DNA from: a virus
Direction: 5' to 3' (one strand)
DNA: 64,000 bases
Virus record (IMG/VR): IMGVR_UViG_3300047510_002627
Location: 56,752 to 120,751 of that record
Of the stretch, positions 39,214 through 43,060 are shown piece by piece (position 1 is the first letter of the stretch; each line of letters begins with the position of its first letter). The notes beneath the pieces are model-generated. The model searched no databases and was not told where the DNA came from. It saw only the letters and a list, made by a program, of their open reading frames with translations. A program made the position numbers and the translations under genes.

Positions 39214-39504
39214 ATGGAAAATCTGCCAGAAAATCCGGAAGAAGTCATAGACATACTTGCTAAAACTAAAATATTAAAAATTGAAGATGAAACTGGATCT
39301 ATAACTTTAGAAGCACACAATCAAGTAAATGTTCAACCAAGTGGAACTCCATTTGGAGCAAAGTTGAAGTTGGAAACAAATGGTTCTATAACACCAACTC
39401 TAACATTTGATACTAAGAAAATGAGAGAGAAAATTAAAAAAAAAGAACCATCCCAATCTATAGACAATGCCCTAGAGGAGTATTTAAAAAATGAAAATAA
39501 TTGA
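39214..39504 (+). CDS. Hypothetical protein
   Basis: ORF tightly packed in the operon. Confidence 0.6.
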   Translation: MENLPENPEEVIDILAKTKILKIEDETGSITLEAHNQVNVQPSGTPFGAKLKLETNGSITPTLTFDTKKMREKIKKKEPSQSIDNALEEYLKNENN

Positions 39505-39820
39505 ATATCTAAAACAAATTCATTGGTTTGATCAAGAAAATAAATTCAATATACTTCATTTTAAATTTGGAAAAGAAAGAAAACCAATAACTCACTATAT
39601 GAAAGTTGGAGCGGTTTTTAGATTGACTCTTGATTTAATTTTATTTTTTCCAGGTGCCGATAAAGAAAAAATTTTTAATCTAATTGATGAAGCGCAATTA
39701 CATTTGGGAATTGATTTATTGAATGATTATATTATTCAAGATAAAGAATTGCTTACTTATAGAATTAGGAGAAAAATTCAAAAATCTATAGAAGACTACA
39801 AAATTAAAAATGAGAATTAA
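39491..39820 (+). CDS. Hypothetical protein
   Basis: Shares an ELL.Y...R.....I.DY motif with the next ORF. Confidence 0.6.
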   Translation: MKIIEYLKQIHWFDQENKFNILHFKFGKERKPITHYMKVGAVFRLTLDLILFFPGADKEKIFNLIDEAQLHLGIDLLNDYIIQDKELLTYRIRRKIQKSIEDYKIKNEN

Positions 39821-40403
39821 CATTCTTGGAAAGCAATCTCTTGCTTCTGCTATTATTGTTGCTGGTGTAAATTGGATTCAATTCTGGTTAAAGAGTAAAA
39901 CCGGAATCCAGTTGGAGGAAAATATTATCTGGAAAATATATTATGAACTTGATAGATTTTCTGAGAGATTAAAACTTCAAAAAATGATAGAAAGCATTAA
40001 TGAAGAAGAATTTTTTGAATTTCTTGATGAATTTATTGAAGTCGTGGATGAGGAGACAGTAAAAAATCCAAAAATACTTGAGAACAGGCAACTTCTTTGG
40101 GAAATGTTTAAAGTTTTAAAGGAGTTTTCTAAAAAGGGTTGGGTGAAAGATAATCCTGTCACGAATGAAGTTAAATATCAAATAAATAAAAAAATAAATG
40201 AAACACCGGAGTTACTTGATTATAAAGTAAAACGGGATGTTGATAGAGCAATATCCGACTATAATAAAGAATCGGAAAAAATTCATAAACCAGAACCAGA
40301 AATAAAACCAATATTTACAGAAACTCTTGAAGGTGAAACACTTTTAGGTGGTGAAATGAGATTAAGAGCACCTTGGATTAACGAAGATGGATCAACAAGA
40401 TAA
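39810..40403 (+). CDS. Hypothetical protein with an N-terminal hydrophobic segment
   Basis: ORF track; shares a motif with the previous ORF. Confidence 0.6.
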   Translation: MRINILGKQSLASAIIVAGVNWIQFWLKSKTGIQLEENIIWKIYYELDRFSERLKLQKMIESINEEEFFEFLDEFIEVVDEETVKNPKILENRQLLWEMFKVLKEFSKKGWVKDNPVTNEVKYQINKKINETPELLDYKVKRDVDRAISDYNKESEKIHKPEPEIKPIFTETLEGETLLGGEMRLRAPWINEDGSTR

Positions 40404-40551
40404 AGAAGCACTTGACAAAGCGTATTCAGATATGATAAAAAGTTTATTTCAAAATTATGTTTTGGATCAAGATTTCAATAAGTTAAAGAGAGGTTTGACA
40501 CACCTTAAAAAATCAAGAGATACCGTCTCAGATCTCCTTCAGGGGGGTTGA
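40387..40551 (+). CDS. Small hypothetical protein (54 aa)
   Basis: MDQQDKEALDKAYSDMIKSLF...; overlaps the previous stop codon. Confidence 0.5.
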   Translation: MDQQDKEALDKAYSDMIKSLFQNYVLDQDFNKLKRGLTHLKKSRDTVSDLLQGG

Positions 40552-40576
40552 CAAAGAGAAAGTTCAGTGGTATTCT
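40548..40576 (+). promoter_or_regulatory. sigma70 promoter at the start of the tRNA cluster
   Basis: TTGACA-17-TATTCT. Confidence 0.65.
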
Positions 40577-40614
40577 TAAGAAGTGGTCAGGGCAGTCCTA
40601 AGGACACTCTCCAC

Positions 40615-40647
40615 TTGACAATCAAATTCTGATATGATATGATTGTC
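40615..40647 (+). promoter_or_regulatory. Palindromic sigma70 promoter, copy 1
   Basis: TTGACA-17-TATGAT; GACAATCA..TGATTGTC inverted repeat. Confidence 0.75.
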
Positions 40648-40651
40648 CCAT

Positions 40652-40728
40652 GTCTCGGTAGCTCAGTTGGATAGAGCATCTGCCTTCTAAGCAGTTGGTC
40701 ACAGGTTCAAGTCCTGTCCGAGACGCCA
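40652..40728 (+). tRNA. trnR: tRNA-Arg(UCU), CCA encoded
   Basis: Cloverleaf; anticodon loop CT-TCT-AA; GGTTCAAGTCC T-arm. Confidence 0.93.
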
Positions 40729-40801
40729 GGGGAATTAGCTCAGTTGGTAGAGCATCGCCTTTGCAAGGCGGGTGTCAGGAGTTCAAGTCTCCTATTCTCC
40801 A
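40729..40801 (+). tRNA. trnA: tRNA-Ala(UGC)
   Basis: GGGGAAT/ATTCTCC acceptor with G3-U70; TT-TGC-AA loop; directly abuts tRNA-Arg. Confidence 0.93.
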
Positions 40802-40802
40802 C

Positions 40803-40835
40803 TTGACAATTTGAGGTTTATACCTTATAATTGTC
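40803..40835 (+). promoter_or_regulatory. Palindromic sigma70 promoter, copy 2
   Basis: TTGACA-17-TATAAT; GACAATT..AATTGTC inverted repeat. Confidence 0.8.
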
Positions 40836-40845
40836 TCAACCCAAT

Positions 40846-40917
40846 GGGACTGTCGCCTATGGGTTAAGGCCCACTGCTTATAACGGTGTGAACTGAGTTC
40901 AAGTCTCAGCAGTCCTA
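40846..40917 (+). tRNA. trnI: tRNA-Ile(UAU)
   Basis: GGGACTG/CAGTCCT acceptor; CACTG-CT-TAT-AA-CGGTG; CTGAG-TTCAAGT-CTCAG. Confidence 0.88.
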
Positions 40918-40918
40918 C

Positions 40919-40951
40919 TTGACAATCATATTAAAATATGATATGATTGTC
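40919..40951 (+). promoter_or_regulatory. Palindromic sigma70 promoter, copy 3
   Basis: TTGACA-17-TATGAT; 11-bp inverted repeat GACAATCATAT..ATATGATTGTC. Confidence 0.78.
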
Positions 40952-40954
40952 TTC

Positions 40955-41065
40955 TGCTTATCTATTTTATAGTAGGTTTAAAGGATAAGCAACAGTAAAC
41001 CTACTTGAAAAAAGGAAAAGTATGAAGCCCGTGAATTTTAAATTCACAATTTGCATCTGCTTTTC
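40955..41065 (+). ncRNA. Candidate small RNA: H-type pseudoknot followed by a long hairpin
   Basis: TGCTTATC/GATAAGCA and AGTAGGTTTA/TAAACCTACT stems are interleaved; GAAAAGTA/TGCTTTTC encloses GTGAATT/AATTCAC. Confidence 0.55.
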
Positions 41066-41071
41066 TTAATT

Positions 41072-41142
41072 GCGGGCATGGTGTAGCGGTAACATCTGAG
41101 CCTTCCAAGCTCCAGTCACCGGTTCGATCCCGGTTGCCCGCT
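41072..41142 (+). tRNA. trnG: tRNA-Gly(UCC)
   Basis: GCGGGCA/TGCCCGC acceptor; CT-TCC-AA loop; GGTTCGATCCC. Confidence 0.93.
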
Positions 41143-41166
41143 CTTGGAGATCGACGGATTTCCAAA

Positions 41167-41354
41167 GGGTGTGACAGAAAAATCTATGTGGTCAAGCACT
41201 GGATATTGTATAGTAAGGTAGGGGTGGTGCCCGCTGTAAAACTGGGAGACCAGAGTTACAGAATCCAATGCCAAGGAACCTAAAAGTGCTGGAATAATTA
41301 CGTTGTCAGTGAGACCTTCCAGTTGTGAGTATGACAGAATCTCACCACCCACCA
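41167..41354 (+). ncRNA. Highly structured ~188-nt RNA with tRNA-like ends (GGGTG...CACCC-ACCA)
   Basis: Terminal stem + ACCA; T-arm-like GTGAG/CTCAC; GAGA-tetraloop arm; potential loop-loop pairings. Confidence 0.65.
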
Positions 41355-41358
41355 AAAT

Positions 41359-41430
41359 TCCTCTGTAGCTCAGCGGTAGAGCGAGCGGCTGTTAACCGCT
41401 TGGTCGCAAGTTCGATCCTTGCCGGGGGAG
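41359..41430 (+). tRNA. trnN: tRNA-Asn(GUU)
   Basis: TCCTCTG/CGGGGGA acceptor; AGCGG-CT-GTT-AA-CCGCT. Confidence 0.93.
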
Positions 41431-41469
41431 TTGAAAGGATTGGAAATGTCCGATTCTTTCAAATTGAAA

Positions 41470-41626
41470 ATGCTGGACAAACTTTGGAGGTAACTCCCAC
41501 CCCATTTGGGTGCCTTCCTGAGAACAGGGAAAATAAGGTTTGGTGTTTTCTCTTATCATTGCCCTCTAATGCAGTGAAAGTTGGAGAAGTGATCCTGCGG
41601 ATTCGTCCAAGAGCTCTCCTTCTCCT
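41470..41626 (+). ncRNA. Multi-stem structured RNA, possibly the manA RNA motif
   Basis: ACTTT/AAAGT closes a junction of several hairpins; TGGAC/GTCCA pseudoknot; GGAGAAG/CTTCTCC; manA RNAs are described in cyanophages near tRNAs, but the family is not verified here. Confidence 0.6.
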
Positions 41627-41629
41627 AAA

Positions 41630-41701
41630 GGGCGATTAACTCAGCGGTAGAGTGCCTCCTTTACACGGAGATGGTCACTGGTTCAAATCCAGTATCGCCC
41701 A
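41630..41701 (+). tRNA. trnV: tRNA-Val(UAC)
   Basis: GGGCGAT/ATCGCCC acceptor; TT-TAC-AC loop; GGTTCAAATCC. Confidence 0.93.
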
Positions 41702-41727
41702 TTTTTTCCAAATTTTACTTATATATA

Positions 41728-41928
41728 ATGAAAGGAAAAACAATTAAAAAATGGGTCCAGAAACCGCTTAGGTTTCATCATCAGGATATTCATGAAGAAT
41801 TAGAAGAAATTAAGGGGTTGATAGGATATGTTAGTGGTCAGATGCAAGAGTTGCGGGATAGAGTTGACAGGATCAACGAAAACACAAGTTTGTGGTTGTC
41901 CAAACAAAATGGAACTGAAGGAGAATAA
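41728..41928 (+). CDS. Hypothetical protein overlapping the next ORF
   Basis: MKGKTIKKW..RFHHQDIHEEL; ~100-nt overlap in another frame. Confidence 0.4.
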   Translation: MKGKTIKKWVQKPLRFHHQDIHEELEEIKGLIGYVSGQMQELRDRVDRINENTSLWLSKQNGTEGE

Positions 41929-42085
41929 AGTCTCCGCAGTCGATTTGACTCAGGTTGTTGTGACTAATTCCGAGTTGTCTAAAAAGTCTAAAAAGCAACA
42001 AAAATTTCTTTCAGATCAAGATCTTGCTTTTCAAGAAGCAAGAAAAGCACGAAAAGTGAGAAAATTGGATTTTGAAATCCGATAA
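41828..42085 (+). CDS. Small Zn-ribbon-like conserved cyanophage protein
   Basis: CKSC..CGCPN; RKVRKLDFEIR. Confidence 0.7.
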   Translation: MLVVRCKSCGIELTGSTKTQVCGCPNKMELKENKVSAVDLTQVVVTNSELSKKSKKQQKFLSDQDLAFQEARKARKVRKLDFEIR

Positions 42086-42090
42086 TATTT

Positions 42091-42174
42091 GGAGAGGTGG
42101 CCGAGTGGTTTATGGCAGCAGTCTTGAAAACTGCCGTGTTAATAGCACCGTGGGTTCAAATCCCACCCTCTCCG
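42091..42174 (+). tRNA. trnS: tRNA-Ser(UGA)
   Basis: GGAGAGG/CCTCTCC acceptor; CT-TGA-AA loop; long variable arm. Confidence 0.93.
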
Positions 42175-42218
42175 TTCTTAATATTTTCTTCAACACTGTT
42201 ACTACATGAACACATTTG

Positions 42219-42247
42219 TTGACAATAGAAATTATTTCTAGTATAAC
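42219..42247 (+). promoter_or_regulatory. sigma70 promoter
   Basis: TTGACA-17-TATAAC. Confidence 0.65.
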
Positions 42248-42276
42248 TATATAATGACCTCTATTGATGCAGATTG

Positions 42277-42426
42277 ATGGACGAAGAAAGGATCCAACAA
42301 ATGATAGATCAAGCAATTGATCGTCACAATAAAACAGCATCCCTGATTAGTGCTTGCATTGGATCAGTGTTGCTGTTTTTTTATGCACATGGAGTAATTT
42401 GTTTGGTCAATAAAATTACTGGTTAA
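42277..42426 (+). CDS. Small membrane protein (49 aa)
   Basis: MIDQAIDRHN..ASLIS...FYAHG. Confidence 0.6.
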   Translation: MDEERIQQMIDQAIDRHNKTASLISACIGSVLLFFYAHGVICLVNKITG

Positions 42427-42594
42427 TGTCCAGGGAGGTATAGGAGTAAAGTGTTTGAATTCACAGATGAAGATTTTATCGATCTTTATGAACGAATGAA
42501 CAAACAAAAAATACAAGAATTATTTGAAGAACCATCGACATATGAAGATGATTTAGAAGAAGATTCTTGGTACTTTATAAAATAGGAGAAATTT

Positions 42595-42819
42595 ATGCCC
42601 GAAACTTTTTTGGGGTTATACGTCTTACTTATTGTTTTAGCAATGCTTATTGCTTATGCTGGATTTGATGAAACTCTTCGTATCTTTGCTTATCTTGATT
42701 TGCAAGTAAGATATTTGCTCATCAGAATGCAGATGAAACAAATGCAAAGAAAAATGGAAAGAGAATTAAAATTACCAGCAAAAGATTGGGAGGATTATTT
42801 GAAAAATGACGAATTCTAG
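42595..42819 (+). CDS. Small membrane protein
   Basis: N-terminal TM helix; AGGAG RBS; TATAAATA upstream. Confidence 0.65.
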   Translation: MPETFLGLYVLLIVLAMLIAYAGFDETLRIFAYLDLQVRYLLIRMQMKQMQRKMERELKLPAKDWEDYLKNDEF

Positions 42820-43060
42820 AGAAGTTTCAGATCTAAAATTTTCCAGGTTAGAGTGTCCTAAATGTGGTGCTCTCTGGATGAACGGTGATCACTATTGGTC
42901 CGGCACCGGAAAAAAAGGAAATGAATTGGACCTAGCAGGACTTGTCTGCAATAAACTTGGCGATGATACATGCATCAACCCATGCAGGGGTAAAACAGGT
43001 GGTGAAACATGGGAGGATAGACTGGAAAGTTTAGAAAAGGATATGCCAAGAGATGATTAA
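42806..43060 (+). CDS. Small Cys-rich conserved cyanophage protein
   Basis: CPKCGA.W.NG.HYW...LDLAGLVCN...CINP. Confidence 0.7.
   Translation: MTNSREVSDLKFSRLECPKCGALWMNGDHYWSGTGKKGNELDLAGLVCNKLGDDTCINPCRGKTGGETWEDRLESLEKDMPRDD

What the first reader, a model, noticed from the sequence alone, without database searches (positions are those of the whole stretch)
40548..41701. The tRNA cluster is a mixed tRNA/ncRNA array
Seen: nearly every inter-tRNA spacer is structured. The order is promoter, small hairpin, palindromic promoter, Arg, Ala, palindromic promoter, Ile, palindromic promoter, pseudoknot RNA, Gly, hairpin (41145-41164), 188-nt RNA, Asn, 14-bp hairpin (41431-41462), multi-stem RNA, Val. 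Inference: the tRNAs could act as processing punctuation that releases several small RNAs from strong host-polymerase promoters, giving the phage an RNA-only module for translation takeover or counter-defence.
Basis: partly seen in the sequence, partly recalled or inferred. Interest (0 to 1): 0.75.

Follow-up and report, generated by a model that had tools for sequence, protein, structure and literature searches.

The report
Cyanophage tRNA array carrying folded RNAs
This cyanobacterial virus packs conserved folded RNAs flush between its tRNA genes (one catalogued as manA, at least two not catalogued), where the host's tRNA-trimming enzymes would probably cut them free, much as in phage T4.

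Summary
The window is part of a T4-like cyanophage contig. Positions 40548-41701 hold six tRNA genes, four near-consensus sigma-70 promoters (three palindromic) and three conserved structured RNA units.

- **manA RNA:** the "hairpin + 188-nt RNA" is one catalogued RNA, manA (Rfam RF01745, 104.9 bits). It lies flush between two tRNA genes in 6 of 6 copies examined. Two metatranscriptomes hold it as short exact contigs.
- **RNA behind tRNA-Asn:** the "14-bp hairpin + multi-stem RNA" is an uncatalogued family. It sits behind tRNA-Asn in 36 of 41 viral contigs and has strong covariation. The window's copy carries a swapped-in 3' hairpin module.
- **Pseudoknot:** it is conserved in 24 other contigs, in 14 of them directly behind tRNA-Ile(UAU).
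- **Small hairpin at 40577-40614:** no better than chance.

Release of these RNAs by RNase P and RNase Z is inferred, with a precedent in T4 species 1 and 2 RNAs. It is not shown here. Their functions are unknown, and translation takeover or counter-defence remains untested.

This is a new variant of a known kind: structured RNAs in phage tRNA islands, as with T4 rnaC/rnaD, GOLLD and ROOL.

The scan has already found this theme, and the RNA behind tRNA-Asn, in other cyanophage genomes.

The parts
40548..40576 (+). Sigma-70-type promoter P1 (TTGACA, 17 nt, TATTCT; 10/12)
40577..40614 (+). Small hairpin between P1 and P2; not better than chance
   Evidence: z = -1.2, 23 of 200 shuffles fold as well
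40615..40647 (+). Palindromic promoter P2 (11/12). The 8-nt arms GACAATCA / TGATTGTC span the -35 box to just past the -10 box.
   Evidence: z = -2.7
40652..40728 (+). tRNA-Arg(TCT), CCA encoded
40729..40802 (+). tRNA-Ala(TGC)
40803..40835 (+). Palindromic promoter P3 (12/12), starting right after the tRNA-Ala 3' end
   Evidence: z = -4.5
40846..40918 (+). tRNA-Ile(TAT). Together with P3 it is a cassette absent from relatives L021 and L022, flanked by repeats of the promoter's 5' part.
40919..40951 (+). Palindromic promoter P4 (11/12; 11-nt perfect arms). It also scores as terminator-like.
   Evidence: z = -5.5
40956..41005 (+). H-type pseudoknot. S1 pairs 40956-40963 with 40983-40990. S2 pairs 40971-40979 with 40997-41005.
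   Evidence: It is conserved in 24 other viral contigs. All of 323 cells are paired. S1 has 2 compensatory pairs; S2 does not vary.
41013..41067 (+). Long hairpin leading into tRNA-Gly. It holds a 15-codon mini-ORF (41022-41069) whose stop is not conserved.
   Evidence: z = -3.75; conserved in L021, L022, L046, L050
41072..41143 (+). tRNA-Gly(TCC)
41145..41355 (+). manA RNA (Rfam RF01745), full length, flush between tRNA-Gly and tRNA-Asn.
   Evidence: 104.9 bits against a gathering score of 55.2; exact RNA-library contigs at 41155-41350 and 41177-41345; loop-loop covariation
41358..41431 (+). tRNA-Asn(GTT), no CCA encoded
41432..41581 (+). Uncatalogued RNA behind tRNA-Asn. H1 is a 14-bp hairpin (41432-41461). 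A 13-bp closing stem pairs 41466-41478 with 41538-41550. It encloses a four-way junction of stems P2, P3 and P4. Hairpin P5 follows, within 41552-41581.
   Evidence: The family occurs in 41 viral contigs plus phage S-SRM01. 96.7% of cells are paired. 15 pairs changed on both sides; 0 of 500 shuffles reach that.
41583..41625 (+). 43-nt hairpin module standing where relatives have hairpins P6 and P7. In 6 other contigs the same module directly follows tRNA-Ala (5) or tRNA-Gly (1).
41630..41701 (+). tRNA-Val(TAC), followed by a T-run

Best explanation
Positions 40548-41701 are the tRNA island of a T4-like cyanomyovirus. It is probably transcribed by host RNA polymerase from several near-consensus sigma-70 promoters (inferred from sequence).

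Conserved structured RNA modules are packed end to end between the tRNA genes:
- a pseudoknot plus hairpin ahead of tRNA-Gly;
- a manA-class RNA between tRNA-Gly and tRNA-Asn;
- a roughly 150-nt four-way-junction RNA directly behind tRNA-Asn, capped here by a separate 43-nt hairpin module.

Each module begins 0-2 nt after a tRNA 3' end (or just after a promoter) and ends 2-5 nt before the next tRNA. The enzymes that mature the tRNAs would therefore release each module as a discrete RNA. RNase Z, or RNase E plus exonucleases, would cut at tRNA 3' ends, and RNase P at tRNA 5' ends. Terminal hairpins would protect both ends of each released RNA.

This is the T4 scheme, in which species 1 and 2 RNAs come out of the tRNA precursor. 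It also matches the tRNA-island setting of the phage RNAs GOLLD and ROOL.

The larger RNAs (manA and the RNA behind tRNA-Asn) most likely act as free RNAs during infection. The palindromic promoters probably double as RNA hairpins on read-through transcripts, at the 3' side of the upstream tRNA.

What is shown: the anatomy, the conservation, the covariation, and the presence of manA in RNA libraries. What is inferred: the cleavage, the stability and the function.
For: **Identity of the phage.** The window is part of an IMG/VR viral contig. Its relatives are Synechococcus myoviruses.

**manA**
- It scores 104.9 bits, full length.
- In 6 of 6 distinct manA copies examined it lies within about 4 nt of a tRNA gene on both sides. 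The copies are the window, L021, L023, S-CREM1, RB11-B and RN05-S.
- Two metatranscriptomes from different studies hold it as short contigs with no differences: 196 nt at 41155-41350 and 169 nt at 41177-41345. Among the 32 pieces the call printed (125 more were not shown), no exact contig covers the adjacent spacers or ORFs.
- Two manA loops keep their complementarity through a switch from UGUCA/UGACA to CAUUA/UAAUG.
- A 2026 preprint reports that manA RNAs form cages through intermolecular kissing loops (passages read).

**RNA behind tRNA-Asn**
- It occurs in 41 viral contigs. The upstream neighbour is tRNA-Asn in 36, an odd tRNA-like element in 4, and a 3' half that looks tRNA-like but was not called in 1.
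- It also occurs in the isolate S-SRM01.
- RNAalifold finds compensatory changes in 20 of 61 pairs.
- On 26 sequences, 96.7% of cells are paired, against 44-52% when partners are slid. 15 pairs changed on both sides; 0 of 500 shuffles reach that.
- There is no Rfam match at E <= 10, and none at E <= 1 for the S-SRM01 copy.

**Pseudoknot.** It occurs in 24 other contigs, in 14 of them directly behind tRNA-Ile(TAT). Stem S1 covaries.

**Promoters**
- Four sites score 11/12 or better in 3.5 kb, against 0.14 expected.
- Across the window and the loci fetched up to, 26 of 65 promoter-like sites next to tRNAs carry a palindrome. Only 1 of 63 elsewhere does.

**T4 precedent.** tRNA-Arg, rnaD and rnaC abut each other. 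The T4 precursor yields eight tRNAs plus species I and II RNAs (PMC2330249, passage read).
Against: - No RNA 5' or 3' ends were mapped. The contigs laid cannot show ends, strand or level. By the tool's own caveat, presence in an RNA library does not prove transcription.
- The small modules (the 43-nt hairpin, the pseudoknot, the promoter hairpins) could be purely cis-acting processing or stability elements.
- Modules are shuffled and swapped between phages. Hairpin P5 is absent in L006 and L008, and P6 and P7 are replaced in this window. So no fixed whole RNA is required.
- No function is indicated by any match.
- Pseudoknot stem S2 never varies, and the search patterns fixed one arm or the other. 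It is compatible with pairing but not proven.
Confidence: 0.65

Rival explanations
1. The spacer structures are only cis-acting parts of tRNA expression. They would be folding insulators, processing guides, 3'-end hairpins or weak terminators that help each tRNA mature. Once cut off they would be waste with no role of their own.
For: - The hairpins abut tRNA ends exactly.
- The modules are tied to particular tRNAs: the pseudoknot to Ile(TAT), the four-way-junction RNA to Asn, and the 43-nt hairpin to Ala or Gly.
- The modules are swapped freely between phages.
- The promoter hairpins sit 0-1 nt behind tRNAs.
- One promoter hairpin scores as terminator-like.
Against: - manA is a complex RNA of about 210 nt that occurs behind different tRNAs: Gly, Leu, Arg.
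- The source paper describes manA in 5' UTRs of gamma-proteobacterial genes.
- manA is reported to self-assemble in vitro.
- manA stands alone in RNA-library contigs.
- The core of the RNA behind tRNA-Asn keeps long invariant unpaired stretches and a four-way junction. That is more than an insulator would need.
Confidence: 0.2
2. manA and the RNA behind tRNA-Asn are ligand- or signal-sensing cis regulators, like riboswitches. They would tune read-through into the downstream tRNA genes.
For: - manA was proposed as a riboswitch candidate (PMC2864571, passages read).
- The terminal hairpin of the RNA behind tRNA-Asn in relatives is followed by a short U-rich stretch.
Against: - No protein-coding gene follows.
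- Downstream tRNAs differ between phages (Val, Thr, Met, Ala) while the RNA stays attached to the upstream tRNA-Asn.
- The scan found no terminator-like site behind manA or behind the RNA that follows tRNA-Asn.
- Separate strong promoters already serve the array.
Confidence: 0.07
3. Some spacers encode micro-peptides, for example the 15-codon ORF at 41022-41069 with an upstream AAGGA, rather than functional RNAs.
For: An ATG lies 7 nt after AAGGA, and the frame is open for 15 codons.
Against: - The stop codon is lost in L021, L022, L046 and L050.
- One of the few substitutions is non-synonymous.
- The changes preserve the hairpin instead.
Confidence: 0.03

Closest known systems
Phage T4 small stable RNAs rnaC (species 1, 139 nt) and rnaD (species 2, 119 nt) in the T4 tRNA cluster
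   Same: - They are non-tRNA structured RNAs of 100-200 nt that directly abut a tRNA gene in a T4-type phage tRNA island.
- They are made from the same precursor as the tRNAs (PMC2330249, passage read).
- Their function is unknown.
   Different: - There is no sequence similarity to any of the three units here.
- T4 places both RNAs at the end of the array. Here the RNAs are interleaved with tRNAs and with internal promoters.
- In the MFE fold, T4 rnaC ends in a T-arm-like hairpin closed by an outer stem pairing its two ends. The RNA behind tRNA-Asn is not called as a tRNA by ARAGORN or Rfam.
manA RNA motif (Rfam RF01745; Weinberg et al. 2010)
   Same: Positions 41145-41355 are a full-length member, at 104.9 bits against a gathering score of 55.2.
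   Different: The family is annotated as a cis-regulatory 5' UTR element. Here, and in all 6 copies examined, it lies flush between two tRNA genes with no gene to regulate.
GOLLD and ROOL RNAs of phages and prophages
   Same: - They are ornate non-coding RNAs of unknown function, encoded by phages and "often near tRNA islands".
- They form RNA-only cages (10.1101/2024.12.08.627333 and PMC5737381, passages read).
- manA RNAs are now reported to form cages too.
   Different: - GOLLD and ROOL are 580-800 nt or more. The units here are 50-210 nt.
- Neither family gives an Rfam match in the window.
- Self-assembly of the RNA behind tRNA-Asn is untested.
abiF RNA motif (Rfam RF03085) in cyanophage tRNA arrays
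   Same: It is a small structured RNA lying between tRNA genes in the relatives S-SRM01 and S-CREM1 (PMC9964418 Table 4).
   Different: It is not present in this window at E <= 10.

Membership tests
manA RNA (RF01745) | Covariance-model score at or above Rfam's gathering score, over the full model | tested here: met
   104.9 bits against 55.2; model positions 1-192 of 192
manA RNA (RF01745) | Usual context: the 5' UTR of a protein-coding gene (a family description, not a structural criterion) | tested here: not met
   It is flanked by tRNA-Gly (ends 41143) and tRNA-Asn (starts 41358). The same holds in 6 of 6 copies.
manA RNA (RF01745) | Complementary loop pair that can form a kissing interaction (reported as intermolecular in the 2026 preprint) | tested here: met
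   UGUCA/UGACA in 4 sequences switches to CAUUA/UAAUG in 2. Whether these are the preprint's L8-L9' loops is my inference.
T4 rnaC/rnaD-type small stable RNAs | Encoded inside the phage tRNA cluster, directly abutting a tRNA | tested here: met
T4 rnaC/rnaD-type small stable RNAs | Sequence homology to rnaC or rnaD | tested here: not met
   Only 7-8-nt chance words by blastn. nhmmer profiles of the two new families find nothing in the T4 region.
T4 rnaC/rnaD-type small stable RNAs | Cut out of the tRNA precursor and stable in the cell | not testable with these tools
   Only a weak hint: discrete exact manA contigs in two RNA libraries.
GOLLD / ROOL | Match to the Rfam models; size above 500 nt | tested here: not met
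   No such match in the window.
GOLLD / ROOL | Homo-oligomeric RNA cage | not testable with these tools
   No RNA 3D or assembly tool was available. There is a literature lead for manA only.
tRNA / tRNA-like element (for the four-way junction behind tRNA-Asn) | Recognised by ARAGORN or by the Rfam tRNA model | tested here: not met
   No call at 41432-41629.
Intrinsic terminator (for the promoter palindromes) | G+C-rich stem followed by a U-run | tested here: inconclusive
   Only the palindrome at 40921-40951 passes the scan. It has 3 G-C pairs out of 13. The other two lack a U-run.
abiF RNA (RF03085) | Rfam match | tested here: not met
   None in 40300-42300 at E <= 10. It is present in the relatives' arrays.

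The most novel reading that the evidence does not exclude
The array would be a production line for self-assembling RNA particles. On this reading:
- manA and the RNA behind tRNA-Asn are made in bulk from strong early promoters.
- Both are cut to exact length by the tRNA-processing enzymes.
- manA may have its ends joined. One RNA-library contig of a relative closes on itself.
- The RNAs then build RNA-only oligomers or cages through kissing loops.
- The cages would sequester tRNAs, ribosomes or host defence factors during infection.

If so, the RNA behind tRNA-Asn would be a new class of such RNAs. In relatives its P6 and P7 loops (AGUGUC / GRCACU) would be the assembly interface.
Probability: 0.15. 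Interest if true: 0.85.

Novelty: new variant of a known kind. Interest (0 to 1): 0.6.

Why it matters
Phage tRNA genes are usually read only as codon-usage helpers. Here the tRNA island is also the home of several conserved folded RNAs. At least two of these families are in no catalogue. One, manA, is catalogued as a gene-control element but in these phages never sits in front of a gene.

If tRNA-processing enzymes release these RNAs, cyanophages have a general and cheap way to make exact-length small RNAs. That would put an unexplored layer of RNA-based host manipulation in very abundant aquatic viruses.

Two isolated phages, S-SRM01 and S-CREM1, carry the elements. The question is therefore directly testable at the bench.

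Tried and rejected
- **Rfam on the spacers.** At E <= 10 on 40300-42300, nothing credible matched spacer A (40919-41071) or spacer C (41432-41629). Only snoRNA and miRNA noise appeared.
- **Spacer A against phage records.** blastn against 50,697 phage records gave no match.
- **Spacer C against phage records.** It matched only S-SRM01 (two records of one phage) and, for its last hairpin, DSL-LC02.
- **Bacterial and archaeal genomes.** A scan of one genome per species (185,579 species) with the 20-nt core word gave 3 hits. nhmmer shows these match only the word itself, so they are chance.
- **Homology to T4 rnaC and rnaD.** None was found.
- **Pfam on six neighbouring ORFs.** Nothing reached threshold.
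- **Reading the RNA behind tRNA-Asn as "manA-like".** Rejected: the manA model does not hit it.
- **Reading its four-way junction as a tRNA.** Rejected: neither ARAGORN nor Rfam calls it.
- **Mini-ORF at 41022-41069.** Rejected, because its stop is not conserved.
- **Small hairpin at 40577-40614.** Not better than chance.
- **Kissing of the P6 and P7 loops in relatives.** The evidence is weak. One sequence (L023) compensates, one (L039) breaks the pairing, and one position is unpaired in 7 of 26 sequences. The window's own copy lacks these hairpins.
- **Sequencing runs.** All ten listed holders (nine on record as RNA, one probably DNA) hold only small shares of the stretch, 0.04-0.09. In the four runs laid, spacers A and C had no cover. 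I draw nothing from that.
- **Pattern hits judged to be chance matches.** L028 and L062, L066 and L067 were dropped from the counts.
- **Supplementary files.** Those of Weinberg 2010, Weinberg 2017 and the S-CREM1 paper were not opened. They may already note the tRNA context of manA.
Full report
**What the window is.** The window is G000:C1:56752-120751, part of an IMG/VR viral contig of 120,751 bases. blastn of 40300-42300 against phage records matches mainly Synechococcus myoviruses, and chiefly over the tRNA genes. Rfam at gathering threshold finds seven tRNAs and one other RNA, manA, in the 64 kb.

**Checking the observation.**
- ARAGORN places the tRNAs at Arg(TCT) 40652-40728, Ala(TGC) 40729-40802, Ile(TAT) 40846-40918, Gly(TCC) 41072-41143, Asn(GTT) 41358-41431 and Val(TAC) 41630-41701. 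Ser(TGA) follows at 42090-42175 after two small ORFs.
- The promoter scan finds TTGACA-17-TATAAT-type sites at 40548 (10/12), 40615 (11/12), 40803 (12/12) and 40919 (11/12).
- Positions 39500-43000 hold four sites scoring 11/12 or better. 500 dinucleotide shuffles give a mean of 0.14, and one shuffle reaches four. The whole window has 16 such sites, 14 of them on the + strand.
- Of 12 strict sites in the window, only the three inside the array are palindromes that pair GACA of the -35 box with TGTC just past the -10 box.
- Spacer folds beat shuffles: z = -3.65 for 40950-41071 and z = -4.03 for 41432-41629.
- Single elements give z = -5.6 for the 14-bp hairpin, -4.0 for manA stem P1, -3.75 for the hairpin before tRNA-Gly, and -2.7, -4.5 and -5.5 for the promoter palindromes.
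- The small hairpin at 40577-40614 is not significant: z = -1.2.

**Unit 1, manA.**
- Positions 41145-41355 match Rfam RF01745 over the whole model, at 104.9 bits against a gathering score of 55.2.
- The family was described as a likely cis-regulatory or riboswitch element in 5' UTRs (PMC2864571, passages read). Here it lies 1 nt after tRNA-Gly and 2 nt before tRNA-Asn.
- I examined every other manA copy I could reach. These were L021 and L023 among 14 relatives' loci, and the isolates S-CREM1, RB11-B and RN05-S. All are flush between two tRNA genes, so the count is 6 of 6 including the window. The upstream tRNA differs between copies (Gly, Arg, Leu).
- Two manA loops stay complementary through a double change: UGUCA/UGACA in four sequences and CAUUA/UAAUG in two.
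- A July 2026 preprint (10.64898/2026.07.01.735769, passages read) reports by cryo-EM that manA RNAs form decamers and a 60-mer cage held by intermolecular kissing loops.

**manA in RNA libraries.**
- Contigs of four metatranscriptomic runs were laid on 40500-42200.
- Run X1 holds a 196-nt contig covering 41155-41350 with no differences.
- Run X2, from another study, holds a 169-nt contig covering 41177-41345 with no differences.
- Among the 32 pieces the call printed (125 more were not shown), no exact contig covers the flanking spacers or the ORFs. General DNA carry-over would not give this picture. Still, contigs cannot show ends or levels, and the tool warns that presence in an RNA library is not proof of transcription.
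- X2 also holds a 248-nt contig of a relative, about 88% identical over the 92 nt printed. The tool reports a joint in it running from 41352 back to 41143 with one A between (table 5c).
- By my arithmetic, the contig's start and end overlap by about 31-37 nt. A circular path of about 211 nt would look like this. It could be an end-joined (circular) manA RNA or a tandem duplication. None of the six genomic copies is tandem. This rests on one contig in one run and is only a lead.

**Unit 2, the RNA behind tRNA-Asn.**
- Spacer 41432-41629 matches S-SRM01 at 80% identity, again directly behind tRNA-Asn. The changes in the 14-bp hairpin are compensatory.
- Two conserved words were scanned through IMG/VR. 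The first gave 27 stretches, one of them a chance hit in coding DNA (L028). The second gave 41 stretches.
- Together they give 41 contigs. The upstream neighbour is tRNA-Asn(GTT) in 36. In 4 it is a 90-nt tRNA-like element that ARAGORN calls Phe(gaa). In 1 it is a 3' half that looks tRNA-like to me but was not called.
- The downstream tRNA varies: Val, Thr, Met or Ala. In some contigs 0.8-1 kb intervenes.
- RNAalifold on 16 distinct sequences predicts 61 pairs, 20 with compensatory changes.
- I counted my own nine-helix model on 26 distinct sequences. 96.7% of 1,435 cells are paired, against 44-52% when partners are slid. 15 pairs changed on both sides, and 0 of 500 shuffles reach that. The covariation score is 0.184 against 0.104 for shuffles.
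- The fold runs as follows:
  - hairpin H1 comes first;
  - a 13-bp G-U-rich closing stem follows, whose rare changes (G-U to A-U, C-G to U-G) all keep pairing;
  - a four-way junction with almost no linkers holds P2 (variable length), P3 and P4;
  - then come P5, P6 and P7.
- The family is modular. P5 is missing in L006 and L008. One subgroup has two extra hairpins after H1. L041 has extra hairpins.
- In this window P6 and P7 are replaced by a 43-nt hairpin (41583-41625). In six other contigs the same hairpin directly follows tRNA-Ala (5) or tRNA-Gly (1), with covarying stem ends.
- No Rfam family matches at E <= 10, nor at E <= 1 for the S-SRM01 copy.
- A scan of one genome for each of 185,579 bacterial and archaeal species found only three chance word matches.

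**Unit 3, pseudoknot and hairpin.**
- S1 pairs 40956-40963 with 40983-40990. S2 pairs 40971-40979 with 40997-41005.
- Two word scans give 24 other contigs after three chance hits are dropped.
- In 14 of the 25 copies the element starts within about 3 nt of the 3' end of tRNA-Ile(TAT).
- In 9 copies, including the window, it lies 44-45 nt behind a tRNA. In the five of these I read (the window, L021, L022, L046, L050), that gap is the palindromic promoter. Two copies are unresolved.
- On 19 distinct sequences all 323 cells pair. S1 has two compensatory pairs: U-A, U-G and C-G at one position, and C-G to U-A at another. S2 never varies apart from one A-U to G-U change. My patterns fixed one arm or the other, so S2 is only compatible with pairing.
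- What follows the pseudoknot differs between contigs. It is either the hairpin seen here and then tRNA-Gly, or a roughly 95-nt element and then tRNA-Met(cat), or tRNA-Leu(taa) at once.

**Promoter palindromes.**
- The count covers the window and the loci fetched up. Of 128 distinct strict sigma-70-like sites, 26 of the 65 next to tRNAs carry a perfect palindrome of 6 nt or more starting at GACA. Only 1 of 63 elsewhere does.
- Most palindromic sites begin 0-1 nt after a tRNA 3' end.
- The inner arms differ between copies but stay complementary. When the -10 box is TATTAT instead of TATGAT, the left arm changes to match it. That argues for selection on pairing.
- The left arm lies upstream of the start site, so only read-through transcripts would contain the whole hairpin.
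- My reading, which is inferred, is a dual element: a promoter for the next tRNA, and a 3' hairpin, processing site or weak terminator for the previous one.
- Alignment with L021 and L022 shows tRNA-Ile plus one promoter copy as an insertion/deletion bounded by repeats of the promoter's 5' part. The repeated promoters may therefore also serve cassette gain and loss.

**Mechanism.**
- Shown: the tight packing, the conservation, the covariation and the RNA-library presence of manA.
- Established elsewhere: in T4, tRNA-Arg, rnaD and rnaC abut each other. [quoted passage not shown]
- Also established elsewhere: GOLLD and ROOL are phage RNAs "often near tRNA islands" that form cages (passages read).
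- Inferred: RNase Z (most tRNAs here lack an encoded CCA) and RNase P release each unit with hairpins at both ends. The larger RNAs then act in trans.
- I put 0.65 on this reading, 0.2 on purely cis-acting processing elements, 0.07 on riboswitch-like control of read-through, and 0.03 on micro-peptides.

**Comparison and novelty.**
- The idea of a mixed tRNA/ncRNA array is not new. T4 has one, and GOLLD and ROOL sit in tRNA islands.
- manA is a known family.
- I believe three things are new:
  - two families that recur and covary yet are absent from Rfam 15;
  - the consistent tRNA-bounded setting of manA, which the passages I read in PMC2864571 and PMC9964418 do not mention;
  - the tRNA-array-specific palindromic promoters.
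- Four literature searches turned up no description of these families. Supplementary files were not opened and may bear on the manA context.
- Earlier notes of this scan report the same RNA behind tRNA-Asn, and the same array theme, in other cyanophage genomes. I reached the same reading independently before reading them. The exception is the end-joined manA lead, which made me re-read table 5c.

Noticed in passing
window 41143-41352 (run X2, table 5c): An RNA-library contig of 248 nt, from a manA relative, runs from the manA 3' end (41352) through one A back to 41143. This is the signature of a circular path of about 211 nt. It could be end-joined manA RNA or a tandem copy.
   Followed up: partly
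L013 12312-12571: A viral contig carries a cyanobacterial-type permuted tmRNA (RF01851, 121.6 bits). It lies about 180 nt after the last tRNA called in the same array that holds the RNA behind tRNA-Asn.
   Followed up: no
L039, L043, L044, L045 (upstream of the RNA that elsewhere follows tRNA-Asn): A 90-nt tRNA-like element takes the place of tRNA-Asn. ARAGORN calls it Phe(gaa), and it has an A/T-rich acceptor. It may be a degenerate or mimic tRNA.
   Followed up: no
L001 1223-1259 (S-SRM01); L081 918-954 (S-CREM1): abiF RNA motifs (RF03085) sit between tRNA genes in both isolates. There is none in this window.
   Followed up: partly
window 40803-40918 against L021 and L022: tRNA-Ile(TAT) plus one promoter copy is a 116-nt insertion/deletion bounded by repeats of CTTGACAAT. 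This suggests that tRNA cassettes are gained or lost by recombination between promoter copies.
   Followed up: partly
L006 13282-13372 and about ten other contigs: A conserved element of about 95 nt, closed by GGAGAG/CUCUCC, lies between the pseudoknot and tRNA-Met(cat). It may be another uncatalogued module. It is absent from this window.
   Followed up: no
L008 6798-6898, L009 1605-1705, L023 11222-11326, L024 9966-10063, L081 132-229: wcaG RNAs (RF01761) lie a few kb from, or beside, the tRNA arrays of relatives.
   Followed up: no
window 42219-42247: Another 11/12 sigma-70-like promoter lies about 45 nt after tRNA-Ser (42090-42175).
   Followed up: no
window 41752-42085: Two small ORFs (58 and 85 aa) lie between tRNA-Val and tRNA-Ser. 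Neither has a Pfam match above threshold. Related phage records annotate Phd-like antitoxins somewhere under the match to this neighbourhood.
   Followed up: partly
L041 3709-3965: This copy of the RNA behind tRNA-Asn has two extra hairpins between P5 and P6. One has a CGUGUC loop resembling the P6 loop.
   Followed up: no
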